Shown here: positions 209 to 63,150 of the stretch, one piece after another | Numbering within the stretch: the first letter of the stretch is position 1 | Layout: each line of letters opens with the position of its first letter | Assembly (NCBI GenBank): GCA_951406725.2 | Contig: OX597815.1 | Span: forward strand, 179,304,001 to 179,368,000 | DNA from: Octopus vulgaris | Taxonomy: Eukaryota | DNA length: 64,000 bases | Direction of reading: 5' to 3' | Notes under the pieces: model-generated | Seen by the model: the letters and a program-made list of their open reading frames with translations, nothing else | Told to the model about the DNA's origin: nothing | The model's database searches: none | Position numbers and translations under genes: made by a program

Positions 209-2371
209 TTAGAGTATGTTTAGTTGTGGTCTGTATTTTTGAATAAGATTACTTTCCTTATTTATTCGTGTTTGGTCTGTGGTGTTGTCCGAGCATTGGT
301 ATAGTGGGAAGACTAAGAATTTGGGGGACTTATTGTGTGCACAAAGGTCTAAGTGTCCACTTAGTGGTATCTGTCTTGTGGAGGGGTCCCTCAGTTGTTG
401 TCGGTAAACTGTCATTCTGTCTCTGAGGGTAAGGCTCGTTTGCCCTATGTAGTCTTAGTGGCATCCTTCACACCTTATGACGTAGAGTAAATTTTTTGAT
501 GCGCACGTGAAGTTATTTTTTATGATGAATGTGTGTCCCGAGTGGAACTTGTACGACGATCCCTCAATGAGGTGGATGCAGGTCTTACAGTTGGGGCGAC
601 CACATTTTTTGATGGTGAGCGGTGGGTTTGTGTTGTGTAATTTTGCGTTGGTGAGGAGGTTTTTTAGGGATTTAGGTTGTCTCTTACTTTTTATTATTTT
701 ATGAGCTGCCAGTATTTTTTTCAGGCGTGGGTCTTGATTTAGTTGTGGAATGTTGTTGTATATAATAGTGTAAGCTTCTGCATTCCTTGGGTTGTGTGTT
801 GAGAGATAAGGGAGGCTATTGACTGTACTGTGGATGTGTTTGGGTTTTCGAAGGTCTTGAATGTTGATTGATTTGGCCCGTTCTATTCCGTTGTCTACTA
901 GTGATGCCGGGTAATGTCTTTCGAGAAGAATTGCCCTTAGTTCCCGGAGTCTTCTATTTCGTGTTGTGTCATTTGAGACAATAGTGCAGATTCTTCTCGC
1001 TAGGTTGAAGGGGATATTTGTCTTTGTGTGTTTTGGGTGATTGGAGGTGAATAGAAGGTATTGTTTAGAGTCAGTGGGTTTGTAATGGATGTCAGTTTCA
1101 ATGTTGACGCCTTTTTTAATGATTAGGATGTCAAGAAAAGGGAGTTGGTCCTGACTATATTCCATTGTGAATTGAATGTTGTTATTTACACTGTTGATAA
1201 GGTTTTTGAAGTCTATAAGTTGGTCGAGTGTGTGGGACCATAGGATGAGGCAATCATCTAAGTAGCGTTTCCAGTTCTCCAACAGGTATTTGTGGAAAGA
1301 CTGGCCGTACTTATATTTGGATTTTTCATAGATATGTGATTCCAGGTAGGCCATCACCAGGTTTGCATAGGTAGGTGCAACTTTCGTACCCATTGCAGTC
1401 CCTGAGACCTGTCTGTAAGTGTTGTTGTGGAAATACATGAAGTTGTTTTGCAGAATAAATTTGAGGCCCTCAATTATGAATTCTTTTTTAATTCTTTCCG
1501 GGATCTCATTGGGATATTTATCCAGCCAGAATTTAATGGCTTCCAGTCCAAATTCATGTGGGATTGTGGTGTAAAGATTAATAACATCAAAAGAAACGAT
1601 TAAGGTGTCTTTATCGGCATGTTTGGGGAGATGGTTTAATAGGTCCAGGTCATCTCTTACAATACTTGGAATGTGTTTCAGTATTGGCTTTAAGATGATA
1701 TCTATAAAGTTGCTAAGTCTGTGTGTTTCACAACTTGGGCCTGCCACTATTGGTCTCAGTTTGAGATCAGTGGGATGTGGTATAGTGATGCAGGTTGAAG
1801 TGGACTTTTTGCAAGCTTCTGTGATAATTTGACTCTTGTGTATTTTTGGAAGCCCATAGAGTGTGCTGGTTTTGCAATTAAATTTAGTAATGTAGTCGCA
1901 TTCCTTTGCTGTCAAGTAATTCCGGTGTTGGTAAATGAGTGCCTTCAGATTGGTCATTGTTTTGGATTGCTGGTAGTCGACTACTCTTTCGTAGTATGTG
2001 GTATCCTCTAAAAGGAGAGATACAGAGTTTTTATATTGCTCAGTATTCATAACAACGACCGTACTACCCTTATCAGCTTCCTTTATTGTGACGTCATGAT
2101 TGTCTCGTAGCGTATGGATGATTTCCCATTCTCTTTTACTGGTGTTGGGTTTGAGTTTAGGTTGTGGGAGTTCACCATAAGGGAAGTTGGAGATGTAATC
2201 GCAAAATTTGTCTAAGGTTTTGTTTTTGCCTTTTATGGGATTATAGTTGCTTTTGTTGGTTGTTTGGCAGACCATTGTATTCGTCGTTATTATTAGTTTT
2301 TCTGTCAAAAAATTCCTCTGTGAGGCGTAATTTTCTGCAAAAGTGCGAGATGTCATCCTGTACGTGTACAA
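209..2371 (-). mobile_element. Penelope-like retroelement (PLE), RT + GIY-YIG endonuclease, probably Neptune clade; 5'-truncated, one frameshift and one premature stop
   Basis: 638-aa ORF carries PLE RT motifs YGLPKIHK, LRPIVAG, SFDVINLYTTIP, GTAMGTKVAPTYANL, WKRYLDD, LPFLDI, YKPTD, SNHPKH. Cys linker KCGRPNCKTC follows, then NLLYVIRCEGCH*DYIGQTSLTLRDR, which continues in frame past TAA (455-457) to 209. N-terminal DISHFCRKLRLTEEFF lies in another frame (frameshift about 2260-2300). Confidence 0.95.
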
Positions 2372-3779: not shown

Positions 3780-3784
<5 letters not shown>

Positions 3785-4157
3785 TATTATAAAAGGCAGA
3801 TTTTATCTGCCTCCCTTTGGGAGTTATACAAATCTACAATATAGGATTTCTTCAATTACAATTTACCTAGCAATTTTAAGAGTACAATGCATCGCGTCAT
3901 GCCAGGTCCAGTTTTTAAAATTTAAACTCCAATTAAGCAAAATTTACAGAAAACTCACATTCTGGTGTGTGTGTCAAATGCTTTTCTTAGTCTGGTTTAC
4001 ACCACACGCAAACGCACACACACAGTGGGCAGCGAATAAAATGAAAGTAATTTACTTACTGTAGTGAGTGATTCTTTCACTCTGCCTCCCACTTCCTCTT
4101 TCAACACAGACACGCAAATATATAAATAAAATTGTAAGCTAACGTGCGTGTGTGTGA

Positions 4158-4190
<33 letters not shown>

Positions 4191-4869
4191 TGAGGGTGCG
4201 CGCGTGTGTGTGTGTGTGTGTGTGTGCGTGTGCGTGAGTGTGTGACAGGAAAGTTTTTTACGACGAATATAAGTAGCAGAAAGATAAGACAGTAAGGTGT
4301 GATTTGAGGGAGATTTGGCTGCTATTTCTACCATGTCTAGCTGCCATGTAGGGGTCTCCCTCATAGGCTCATACATACATATATACATAGATAAGACAGT
4401 AAGGTGTGATTTGGGGGAAATTTGGCTGCTATTTCTACCAGGTCTAGCTGCCATGTAGGGGTCTCCCTCATAGGCTCATACATACATATATACATAGATA
4501 AGACAGTAAGGTGTGATTTGGGGGAAATTTGGCTGCTATTTCTACCAGGTCTAGCTGCCATGTAGGGGTCTCCCTCATAGGCTCATACATACATATATAC
4601 ATAGATAAGACAGTAAGGTGTGATTTGGGGGAAATTTGGCTGCTATTTCTACCAGGTCTAGCTGCCATGTAGGGGTCTCCCTCATAGGCTCATACATACA
4701 TATATACATAGATAAGACAGTAAGGTGTGATTTGGGGGAAATTTGGCTGCTATTTCTACCAGGTCTAGCTACCATGTAGAGGTCCCCCTCATTGGCTCAT
4801 ATATATATACATACATAAGACAGTAAGGTGTGATTTGAGGGAGATTTGGCTGCTGTTTCTACCAGGTCT
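3780..4869 (+). mobile_element. Probable non-autonomous Helitron 5' portion carrying a minisatellite
   Basis: Begins TCTCTTATTATAAAAG after an A, like the 5' end of the Helitron at 5625; no 3' hairpin or CTAG found. Confidence 0.4.
4282..4869. repeat. 107-bp tandem repeat, about 5.5 near-identical copies
   Basis: agataagacagtaaggtgtgatttg recurs at 4282, 4389, 4496, 4603 and 4710; ORF starts are spaced 107 bp apart. Confidence 0.97.
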
Positions 4870-4935
4870 GTTAGGCCTTCTCATGTAAACTCAAGCTTTC
4901 TTATGCCTTGAACATAAGACCAAAGCAGAGAATGT

Positions 4936-5170
4936 ATTCTTTTATTCTTCTGCTTTTTCCAGCCATTGGTCTGTGGCCATGCTGGGGCAATGCCTTGAAG
5001 AATTGTAGTTTAATGAATCAACTCCAGTTTTATTTTTGTAAGCATTGTACTTATTCTATCTGTTTCCACTAGGTGACAGGGATGTAAACAAACCAACATT
5101 CGTTGTCAAGCAGTGGTGGAGGACAATCACAAGCACAGACACGCACACACACACACATACATGCATACAT
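4936..5170 (-). mobile_element. SINE family A, 3' half
   Basis: Matches the tail of the full-length copy at 60901-61317. Confidence 0.75.
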
Positions 5171-5199
5171 ACATATATATATATGTGTGTATATATATA

Positions 5200-5535
5200 T
5201 TGCAGCGTGGAAGGTGTTTGTAAGCCATTTAAGAAACACACAAAAACCGTTACATTCACTTCAACATTTAAATTTCATTTGCCAAAATATTTTCGTCGCT
5301 TTGAGACCGCGACCTGTTCACTGACAAAAATATCGTGCTAACAGGTCGCGGTCTCAAAGCGACGAAAATATTTTGACAAATTAAATTTAAATGTTGAAGT
5401 GAATCTAACGGTTTTTGTGTGTTTCTTAAATGGCTTATAAACACCTTCAACGCTGCAACTGTTTTCGTTCCAGCACACGATCTCAGATCAAGTCACTTGC
5501 TATGCAAGTACATCTCTGTAACTATTTATACATTT
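5200..5535. mobile_element. Inverted (foldback) PLE-type terminal-repeat element within (TA)n
   Basis: 5200-5318 is the reverse complement of about 5340-5458; contains an HHR motif; flanked by (TA)n. Confidence 0.7.
5278..5328 (-). ncRNA. Minimal type-I hammerhead ribozyme candidate (G3-C8 core variant)
   Basis: Minus strand: tttgtca-GTGAACA-g-GTCGC(ggtctcaaa)GCGAC-GAAA-ATAT-TT-tggcaaa; 7-bp stem I, 5-bp stem II. Confidence 0.65.
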
Positions 5536-5624
5536 ATATATATATATATATATATGTATATTGTTAAAAACAGTAAGATAACAAAAGAAAGAAAGAGACC
5601 TCAATATTATGTAAATAGAGGAAA

Positions 5625-6018
5625 TCTTTATATATAAAAGTGAGGTTGTGTGTCTGTCTCCTACGATTTAGATTCCTAACTACTCCCACATTTTGCGGTG
5701 CAGTTTAACCAAAAGCGGGTATCTTATAGTCGTGATTCATATCGAGACCGTCTGGGTATTAGCGCGCGTCTACGATGAGTCTACGATTTAAAAAAAAAAT
5801 TACCATCAATTTTTCCCATTTTTAATCCATTTTTGACATATATAAGGGAAGTAACTCTCTAAAATTTATTATTAAATCTCAGAACGTAAAAAGCTACAGT
5901 AACACCCCTCCCCCTTTGTGGTTAGCCATATTGAGATGTCTATTATACTTTACATCTCTAAAAATGCTTATATAATTATTTCCCTTACAAACCCGAGCAA
6001 CGCCGGGCGATACTGCTA

Positions 6019-31144: not shown

Positions 31145-32160
31145 TCCTTAAATCCTTAAATCCTTAAAAATGTTTCAGCCCGAAGGCTGCGGCCATGCTG
31201 GGGTACCACCGTTGAATGAGCTGCACTAGTATGTGAATCCACCTCTGATACGTGGCACTTGGTCAACAAGGGAGTTCGATGCCGCTGCCCGCATCTGTGT
31301 CTCCTTCCGAGAGGTAGGTTCATCTGGGAACCCTGACAAGAAGAGATCCAGTTTAGTTTTAAAGAAACCCACATCCACACCATGCTAGTCTCTCAGGCAT
31401 TTAGGGAGGCTGTTGAAGAGCTGTGATCCTCTGAAACCCAAGCTGTTGCAGTATCTGGTCCTGTATTTTGATGATGATGTTGGAATCTTTGGCACCATGC
31501 AGTGGCGCCCCGTTCTGCGGTTGGGGTAACTTTGAATGCCAAAGTTTGGGACAAGACCCTCCAGGATTTTCCAGATGTATATCACTGCATATCTCTCCCG
31601 CCTTTGCTCTAGGGAAAAGAGTTTTAATAGTTTCAGTATTTCCCAGTAGCTGATATGTTGCATTGAGACGATCTTCTTAGTGTAGCTTCTTTGAATTGCT
31701 TCGAGTTCTGCTGTTAGCTTTATATTGTGTGGTGACCATAGTTGGGAGCAGTAGTCCAAGCGGCTGAGGACGAAATTTTTCCAAAGGACCATCAATGTCT
31801 CCTTCTCTCTTGTTCTGAAAGTTCGGAGAATCCATCCAGCTAGCCGTCTGCATTTTATCACCAAATTAGTAATATGCACTTGGAAAGATGCATCATTGCT
31901 CATGTCAATGCCCATGTCACGCACTGATTTTGACTCAGAAATTACAATTCTTCCCGGGCCAGTGTATCCAGTCTGCATGTCGTTTACCTTTGTGTGCCGG
32001 TAGCGCATGGCCTGTAACTTCCCTGCATTAAACTACATGTTGTTGTCCTCAGTCCACCTGTATATTGTATCCAACTCCTGTTGCAGATGTGCGATATTTC
32101 CAGCGTTTTGCATTGTGCGGGAGACTTTTGTGTCATCTGCATAGCTAGCAAGGGTGGCCA
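31145..32160 (-). mobile_element. CR1-clade LINE, 5'-truncated (RT C-terminus, 3' UTR and octamer tail)
   Basis: SYADDTK; VRDMGI; GWILRTF; SRLDYCSQLWSP; LEAIQR; LFSLEQRRER; tail (tttaagga)3. Confidence 0.92.
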
Positions 32161-61645: not shown

Positions 61646-62340
61646 ATGATTCCAAATTTTTGCGACAAGGGCAGCGTGGGGGAGGAGATTAAGTCGATTA
61701 CATCGATCCCAGTTCGCAACTGGTACTTAATTTATCGACCCCGAAATGATGAAAGGCAAAGTGAACCTCGGCGAAATTTGAACTCAGAATGTAGCGGCAG
61801 ACGTAATACTTATTTCTTTATTGTCCACAAGGGGCTAAACATAGAGGGGACAAACAAGGACAGACAAACAGATTAAGTCGATTACATCGATCCCAGTTCA
61901 TAACTGGTACTTATTTAATCGACCCCGAAAGGATGAAAGGCAAAGTTGACCTCGGCGGAATTTGAACTCAGAACGTAGGGGCAGGCGAAATACCTATTTC
62001 TTTACTGACCACAAGGGGGTTACACACAGAGGGGACAAACAAGGACAGACAAACGGATTAAGTCGATTACATCGACCCCAGTGCGTAACTGGTACTTAAT
62101 TTATCTATTTCTTTACTACCCACGAGGGGCTAAGCACAGAGGGGACAAACAAGGACAGACAAACGGATTAAGTCGATTATATCGACCCCAGTGCGTAACT
62201 GATACTTTTTTAATCGACCCCGAGAGGATGAAAGGCAAAGTCGACCTCGGCGGAATTTGAACTCAGAACGTAAAGACAGACGAAATACTCGCTAAGCATT
62301 TCGCCCGGCTTGTTAACGAATCTGCCAGCTCGCCGCATTA
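61646..62340 (-). mobile_element. SINE family B with multiple internal tandem duplications
   Basis: gaggggacaaacaaggacagacaaac recurs three times; core recurs three times. Confidence 0.9.
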
Positions 62341-62807: not shown

Positions 62808-63150
62808 AAGAGGCGAGCTAGCAGAAACGTTAGCACGCCGGGCGAAATGCTTAGCAGTATTTCGTCTGCCGTTACGTTCTGAGTTCAAATTCCGCCGTGG
62901 TCGACTTTGCTTTTGAAGGCGGCAGCTGGCAGAAACGTTAGCACGCAGAGCGAAATGCTTAGCAGTATTTCATCTGCCGTTACGTTCTGGGTTCAAATTC
63001 CGCCGAGGTCGACTTTGCCTTTCATTCTTTCGGGGTCGATAAATTAAGTACCAGTTACGCACTGGGGTCGATGTAATCGACTTAATCCGTTTGTCTGTCC
63101 TTGTTTGTCCCCTTTATGTTTAGCCCCTTGTGGGTAGTAAAGAAATAGGA
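62808..63150 (+). mobile_element. SINE family B with duplicated head
   Basis: Head repeated at about 62810 and about 62916. Confidence 0.9.

What the first reader, a model, noticed from the sequence alone, without database searches (positions are those of the whole stretch)
5278..5328. Natural G3-C8 hammerhead core (GUGAACA)
Seen: 7-bp stem I, 5-bp GC-rich stem II, GAAA, palindromic AUAU loop and a UU site, but the core reads GUGAACA. Known: C3-G8 is a tertiary Watson-Crick pair and the swapped G3-C8 double mutant rescues activity. Standard CUGANGA searches would miss this motif. A double compensatory change argues for selection on catalysis (inference).
Basis: partly seen in the sequence, partly recalled or inferred. 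Interest (0 to 1): 0.75.

Follow-up and report, generated by a model that had tools for sequence, protein, structure and literature searches.

The report
Swapped-core hammerhead in Penelope retrotransposon
An abundant, recently active jumping gene in an octopus-like genome carries a small self-cutting 'hammerhead' RNA motif in which two paired core letters have traded places while related elements keep the usual order, so it looks like a natural working variant, although cutting has not been shown.

Summary
The motif is real, on the minus strand (5328-5278): 7-bp helix I, core GUGAACA plus one extra G, 5-bp helix II, palindromic loop III, UU site. It is not a one-off. It is the 3' pseudo-LTR hammerhead of a Penelope-like retrotransposon family with 7,720 G3-pattern matches and young RT/GIY-YIG copies; 26 of 30 ORF-selected loci carry G3-C8. 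An older related family keeps G3-C8 (19 of 29 copies) while N7, the loops and a helix I pair changed. Related families have C3-G8 at the same place. This supports selection on the fold and on the 3-8 pair. Catalysis is untested. Against strong activity: a predicted G3-U17 pair, the extra G, and no excess of copies starting at the cut site. The window copy is probably dead, locked in a 119-bp hairpin inside another repeat. In print I found natural U3-A8, and G3-C8 only as a laboratory mutant; four key papers could not be read. This scan has noted G3-C8 before, in phages and protist elements (unchecked notes). Verdict: new variant of a known kind.

The parts
5278..5328 (-). Minimal type I hammerhead motif with G3-C8 core, extra G between 9 and 10.1, 5-bp helix II, palindromic loop III; predicted cut between 5285 and 5284
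5315..5321 (-). Core positions 3-9, GUGAACA (G3 = 5321, C8 = 5316)
5200..5339 (-). 5'-truncated copy of the 3' pseudo-LTR of the Penelope-like family 'A', without tail, ending in (TA)n; left arm of the palindrome
5340..5521 (+). Inverted second copy, truncated inside the core (lacks the helix I 5' strand and G3-U4-G5), with the ~60-nt tail; frame 5430-5519 resembles the ORF start of sister family B
3781..6018 (+). ~2.2-kb host repeat that carries the palindrome as a passenger; 94-99% identical copies elsewhere; ends look Helitron-like (rule recalled)

Best explanation
The motif is the pseudo-LTR hammerhead of a Penelope-like retrotransposon lineage in which the tertiary C3-G8 pair was replaced by G3-C8 long ago and has been kept since. 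Shown: it lies ~1 kb behind the RT + GIY-YIG ORF and 56 nt before a frame that resembles a sister family's ORF start; it is homologous to canonical-core hammerheads of related families; and it is conserved as a structure. From established knowledge: position 8 acts through its 2'-OH and the pair with base 3 positions it, so G3-C8 keeps the geometry at reduced rate. Inferred: it is a slow ribozyme that needs an intermolecular helix III (dimer through the palindromic loop) and probably the element's protein. It would cut tandem or read-through transcripts after U17 to free an RNA starting just before the ORF, while the 3' copy usually stays uncut so that reverse transcription can start in the tail. 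The window copy is a truncated, inverted genomic fossil spread by another repeat.
For: Position: core ~1,000 nt after the stop of 839- and 1,025-aa RT/GIY-YIG frames. 26 of 30 ORF-selected loci have G3-C8, 1 has G3-U8, 3 have no core within 1.5 kb. Older family A' (29 copies): G3 in 20, C8 in 25, G3-C8 in 19, C3-G8 in 0. In A' N7 is C not A, helix II has 6 bp, loop III is 2 nt but still palindromic, and the 2.6-1.6 pair is G-C instead of U-A. Related families B (58% amino-acid identity over 634 aa; tree (A,(B,C)) 99/87) and C, and further families, have C3-G8 in the same register with the same extra G and a related helix II. No variant letter at 5% or more over the core in contigs of four organisms. 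Helices I and II form in the autonomous context with p 0.5-1.0. Partial rescue by C3G/G8C, and protein dependence, in the anole Penelope hammerhead. The extra nucleotide and palindromic loop III are hallmarks of PLE hammerheads.
Against: No cleavage data. G3 is predicted to pair with U17 (p 0.48-0.65), like the inactive C3-G17 fold described in PMC3884650. The extra nucleotide is G, outside the published consensus H; I recall that an extra G was harmful in a viroid hammerhead (no call). The designed double hammerhead (-24.2 kcal/mol) is less stable than the alternative dimer (-29.4) and than two monomers (-26.4). No excess of 5' ends at the cut site (52 versus controls of 35 and 234). Sister families deviate too (B has C9; C has an imperfect helix I), which suggests loose constraint in this clade. 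In the anole element, cleavage was not needed for insertion in vitro.
Confidence: 0.62

Rival explanations
1. The fold is kept for a non-catalytic role (binding of the element's protein, translation or promoter control just before the ORF), and the natural RNA no longer cleaves at a meaningful rate.
For: All genomic copies examined run through the cut site, and there is no 5'-end hot spot. Cleavage was dispensable for insertion in vitro in the anole element. Predicted G3-U17 pair. Core deviations in sister families. Reaching G3-C8 needs a passage through an unpaired state.
Against: A purely structural role does not obviously need the exact U4-G5-A6, A9, G12-A13-A14, A15.1-U16.1 set plus a restored 3-8 pair in two diverged families. 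No unpaired-core subfamily was found: 32 scattered C3-C8 copies against 7,720 G3 matches.
Confidence: 0.27
2. The motif is a dead relic: two neutral substitutions hitch-hiked in a successful element and restored a pair by chance.
For: One in three double substitutions gives a Watson-Crick pair. Copy number reflects transposition, not selection on the RNA. Naiad-type PLEs proliferate without canonical hammerheads.
Against: Between A and A' the changes inside the motif fall in loops, N7 and compensated pairs. Young and older A majorities differ at 5 of 9 loop II positions and 0 of 42 other motif positions (partly circular, since many older copies were picked by a helix II pattern).
Confidence: 0.09
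3. The window locus works as a long hairpin (siRNA or miRNA-like precursor), and the hammerhead likeness is incidental.
For: 119-bp, 96% inverted repeat; helices I and II have probability 0 in the whole palindrome; sub-threshold plant miRNA hits.
Against: Inverted 5'-truncated copies are a normal PLE insertion product (L121-L123, L125). The motif exists unpaired behind the ORF in autonomous copies. This explains the fate of the window copy, not the motif.
Confidence: 0.02

Closest known systems
Minimal type I hammerheads (min-HHR) in the pseudo-LTRs of metazoan Penelope-like elements (Cervera and De la Pena 2014, PMC4209133)
   Same: Type I topology, extra nucleotide between 9 and 10.1, G10.1-C11.1, vestigial palindromic helix III, location in the pLTR, thousands of dispersed truncated and inverted copies.
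   Different: Core is G3-C8, not C3-G8; the only core covariation described in the text I read is U3-A8 (Schistosoma). The extra nucleotide is G where their consensus is H. Helix I is 7 bp, longer than their 4-5 bp.
Natural U3-A8 hammerheads (Perreault et al. 2011, PMC3088659; Cervera 2014)
   Same: Natural compensatory change of the tertiary 3-8 pair.
   Different: U3-A8 needs two transitions; here the purine and pyrimidine swap places (two transversions).
Anole Poseidon element PAc hammerhead and its C3G/G8C mutant (Frangieh et al. 2024, PMC11167929)
   Same: pLTR hammerhead just before the ORF start and tail; the engineered double mutant has the core state found here and is partly active; protein-assisted.
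   Different: There G3-C8 is engineered; here it is the wild type of a young family. This ORF has a C-X3-C-X2-C linker before GIY-YIG (Neptune/Nematis-type trait).

Membership tests
Hammerhead ribozyme (type I) | Three-way junction with helices I and II closing the core | tested here: met
   compensated pairs between families
Hammerhead ribozyme (type I) | U4 G5 A6, A9, G12 A13 A14, A15.1-U16.1, H17 | tested here: met
Hammerhead ribozyme (type I) | Literal C3 and G8 (CUGANGA) | tested here: not met
   G3 and C8 in 95 of the first 100 matches
Hammerhead ribozyme (type I) | Watson-Crick complementarity of positions 3 and 8 | tested here: met
   G-C in families A and A', C-G in B, C and others
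Hammerhead ribozyme (type I) | Stable helix III (monomer, or dimer through a palindrome) | tested here: inconclusive
   Palindromic loop kept in A and A', but the designed double hammerhead is not the lowest-energy dimer
Hammerhead ribozyme (type I) | Site-specific self-cleavage after H17 | not testable with these tools
   Indirect genomic test showed no excess of copies starting at the site
Rfam hammerhead families | Score at or above the gathering threshold | tested here: not met
   canonical-core relatives also score nothing, so the test has no power for this minimal form
EN+ Penelope-like element | Single ORF with RT and C-terminal GIY-YIG endonuclease | tested here: met
   1,025-aa frame with GIY-YIG PF01541 E 1.8e-5; RT motifs read from the sequence (DV..LYP, G..IG, YVDD); Pfam RVT_1 did not score
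EN+ Penelope-like element | pLTR hammerhead, optional tail overlapping the ORF start, inverted 5'-truncated copies, (TA)n targets | tested here: met
Neptune or Nematis clade | CX2-5CxxC linker before the endonuclease; placement in the RT tree | tested here: inconclusive
   Linker present (trait); no named reference elements were in the tree

The most novel reading that the evidence does not exclude
G3-C8 with U17 and the extra G is an evolved brake: a hammerhead tuned to be nearly silent alone and switched on only by dimerisation or by the element's own protein, so that the 3' copy stays uncut for reverse transcription. Together with C3-G8 sister families in one genome it would be a natural allelic series for the open question of what Penelope hammerheads do, and would point to a class of animal ribozymes that CUGANGA searches miss.
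Probability: 0.3. Interest if true: 0.68.

Novelty: new variant of a known kind. Interest (0 to 1): 0.5.

Why it matters
The C3-G8 tertiary pair was established by crystallography and engineered double mutants, and natural covariation in the papers I could read stops at U3-A8. Here the full purine-pyrimidine swap is the wild type of a young animal retrotransposon family with thousands of copies, is kept in an older related family, and has canonical sister families in the same genome as controls. That is evolutionary support for the pair. It shows that descriptor searches undercount hammerheads, and it gives a ready test set for whether Penelope-element hammerheads must cut, and how fast. It does not reveal new chemistry or a new kind of element.

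Tried and rejected
1) Rfam at gathering and E-value thresholds: no hammerhead hit for the window or for L120, L131, L158.
2) The young PLE ORF at window 455-2371 as the parent: rejected; none of 30 loci showed the motif.
3) A preserved C3-C8 intermediate subfamily: suggested by L078, L079, L160, L190, L199, L230, but rejected. C3-C8 is 32 of 57 C3 hits, scattered over flank types, and a DNA search seeded with a C3-C8 copy returned mostly G3 copies (20 of 29). L078 is a lone C3-G8 copy in family A context and is unexplained; chance double mutation is plausible. Two narrow tail patterns only returned the copies they were built from.
4) 5'-end hot spot at the cut site: 52 matches, 18 of them explained by inverted-arm microhomology, against 35 (18 single-T slips) and 234 (67 of the first 100 from one indel variant); no excess. 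The flanks were not inspected.
5) Metagenome scan for relatives: 1 weak locus, not used.
6) Expression: runs guessed to be RNA hold the sequence only as contigs, which cannot show transcription or ends.
7) The helix I and loop III columns for the family A and A' rows are mis-registered by my parser; searches give the correct parse.
8) Literature: searches found no natural G3-C8. Lunse 2017 (PMC5785218), Martick and Scott 2006, Przybilski and Hammann 2007 and Nelson and Uhlenbeck 2008 were not held, and one Cervera supplement file was not searchable; any of these could mention it.

Full report
OBSERVATION. The described motif is on the minus strand. Read from 5328 downwards it has a 7-nt helix I strand, the core GUGAACA (G3 = 5321, C8 = 5316), one extra G (5314), a 5-bp G+C-rich helix II with a 9-nt loop, GAAA, AUAU, U16.1-U17, and the 3' strand of helix I (7 bp, one G-U). 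Folding recovers helices I and II (z -2.1; 7 of 200 shuffles as stable). A relaxed scanner finds this one hit in the window and none in 40 local shuffles. Rfam has no hammerhead hit, but it also misses canonical-core relatives.

LOCAL CONTEXT. The motif sits in the left arm of a 119-bp inverted repeat. The right arm is a second copy on the plus strand that starts inside the core and carries an extra ~60-nt tail; the left arm ends in (TA)n and (TA)n follows the tail. In a transcript of the whole palindrome, helices I and II have probability 0; without the upstream arm they have 0.3-0.75. The palindrome is a passenger in a ~2.2-kb repeat with 94-99% identical copies elsewhere. So this particular copy is very probably inert, and the question moves to the family.

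FAMILY STATE. The genome (2.8 Gb) holds 2,109 exact matches of a 27-mer over helix II and loop III. With the core left free there are 1,472 matches; 95 of the first 100 have G3 and C8, and none has C3. A G3-anchored pattern gives 7,720 matches, 99 of the first 100 with C8; matches include both arms of palindromes and host-repeat duplicates, so they are not insertion counts. Contigs from four runs of four coded organisms show no other letter at 5% or more over the core; variation is mostly at CpG sites, loop II and flanks. These organisms may be close relatives.

PARENT ELEMENT. Loose ends led to 5'-extended copies and to decayed RT and GIY-YIG frames about 1 kb upstream on the same strand. A search with that piece found a young family with many identical hits, with open frames of 839 and 1,025 aa (GIY-YIG E 1.8e-5, Pfam RVT_1 not scored) and inverted truncated copies upstream. 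Of 30 loci chosen by the ORF alone, 26 have G3-C8, 1 has G3-U8 and 3 show no core within 1.5 kb. The tail frame starts 56 nt after the predicted cut and aligns with the ORF start seen in a tandem array of a sister family (score 42; 0 of 2,000 shuffles). This is the layout of a Penelope-like element with a pLTR hammerhead (PMC4209133, PMC8557442, PMC11167929). The nearest named homologue is labelled Octopus vulgaris (P0001), and a part of it is encoded in this genome at 100%.

COMPARATIVE TEST OF THE 3-8 PAIR. Sister family B (58% identity over 634 aa) has C3-G8 at the same place, with C9 (39 of 43 pattern hits in 30 loci). Family C has the canonical CUGAAGA (84 of the first 100 of 304 C3 matches are C3-G8; 25 such loci among 30 inspected all have C-type flanks, and one links to a PLE frame). 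Further canonical relatives share the inner helix I pairs, the extra G, the 4-nt loop III and the UU site, and some share the helix II strands of family A. A tree of a 120-aa region (57 of 62 rows long enough) gives (A,(B,C)) with support 99/87. The tree alone does not polarise the change; polarity rests on C3-G8 being the consensus of metazoan PLE hammerheads. An older family A' (29 copies after leaving out the query) has G3 in 20, C8 in 25, G3-C8 in 19 and C3-G8 in none. It differs from A at N7, in a sixth helix II pair, in loop II, in a shorter but still palindromic loop III, and in a compensated helix I pair. A' was tied to A by flank and tail similarity; no ORF was found within 1.5 kb of these copies. 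Young and older A majorities (24 and 33 copies) differ at 5 of 9 loop II positions and 0 of 42 other motif positions (partly circular). I found no intermediate subfamily: 32 C3-C8 hits, scattered, and one lone C3-G8 copy in A context.

HOW IT MOST LIKELY WORKS. Known: G12 is the general base and the 2'-OH of position 8 the general acid (PMC6155905); C3-G8 is a Watson-Crick pair of the active fold (PMC3884650); G8C costs 10^5-fold and C3G partly restores it (PMC8495972); the same holds for a PLE hammerhead, which cut only with the element's protein and whose cleavage was not needed for insertion in vitro (PMC11167929); metazoan min-HHRs cut weakly and only as multimers (PMC4209133). Inferred: the family-A motif is a slow, dimer- or protein-dependent ribozyme that processes tandem transcripts just before the ORF, while the 3' copy mostly stays intact, as every ORF-linked copy shows. 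U17, shared with most canonical relatives, may have allowed the swap by avoiding a G3-C17 pair; PMC3884650 notes that a G3-C8 variant fares better with G17 than with C17.

EVIDENCE AGAINST. No cleavage is shown. G3 pairs with U17 at p 0.48-0.65 in the autonomous context. The extra base is G, outside the published H, and I recall, without a call, that an extra G harmed a viroid hammerhead. The designed double hammerhead is about 5 kcal/mol above the best dimer. Copies do not preferentially begin at the cut site. Sister families carry their own deviations. A role of the fold without cleavage therefore stays open (0.27).

LITERATURE. Read: PMC4209133 (parts 1-2 of 4 and supplement passages; one file not searchable), PMC11167929 (parts 1-2 of 4 and passages), PMC3088659 (section 8 and passages), PMC10085705 (section 14 and passages), the 2026 retrozyme preprint (part 1 of 5), and passages of PMC3884650, PMC8495972, PMC8557442, PMC6765202 and PMC6155905. 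Term searches in PMC11014351 and PMC12192606 gave nothing. Natural covariation reported in what I read is U3-A8 only. Searches found G3-C8 only as a laboratory mutant. Lunse 2017, Martick 2006, Przybilski 2007 and Nelson 2008 were not held, so priority is not settled. Earlier notes of this scan report G3-C8 cores in phages and protist PLEs; they are unchecked, I did not test them, and they are not used as support.

VERDICT. Observation confirmed. It works like, and is homologous to, a PLE minimal hammerhead; it fails the literal CUGANGA rule and meets the pairing rule; activity is untested. New variant of a known kind; interest 0.5.

Noticed in passing
window 455-2371 (-): 638-aa frame of another, very young Penelope-like family (RT, CxxPxCxxC linker; Pfam RVT_1 E 4e-8) with a stop at the start of the GIY-YIG region; many 99% copies in the genome, 14,245 candidates; no hammerhead seen within 1.5 kb of the match.
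   Followed up: partly
window 3781-6018: ~2.2-kb composite repeat starting TC and ending in a hairpin plus CTAG inside (TA)n, Helitron-like by a recalled rule. It holds a 107-bp tandem array (4282-4869), the PLE palindrome and a smaller repeat from ~5624; it occurs as inverted pairs in L031, L033 and L034.
   Followed up: partly
L131, L149, L203 (family B): Young PLE family whose hammerhead has C3-G8 but C at position 9 and a bulged helix I; tandem array with a ~4.6-kb period and a 1,311-aa frame.
   Followed up: partly
L157-L186 (family C): Canonical core but helix I mismatched next to the cut site; 84 of the first 100 of 304 C3 matches are C3-G8.
   Followed up: partly
L078: Single decayed family-A copy with canonical C3-G8 and T at 10.1; L079 and L199 share C3 and T10.1. 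Chance or a small old subfamily.
   Followed up: partly
window 5318-5324: Base 3 is the centre of a perfect 7-nt inverted repeat, so a micro-inversion or template switch could flip C3 to G3 in one step (inference).
   Followed up: no
L040 near 1750 (-): A family-A copy follows a different, decayed canonical-core hammerhead-like stretch of another repeat.
   Followed up: no
window 31385-32032 (-); 61686-62207; 62816-63022: C-terminal piece resembling a CR1/L2-type LINE protein (recalled), and tandem copies of SINE-like repeats.
   Followed up: no
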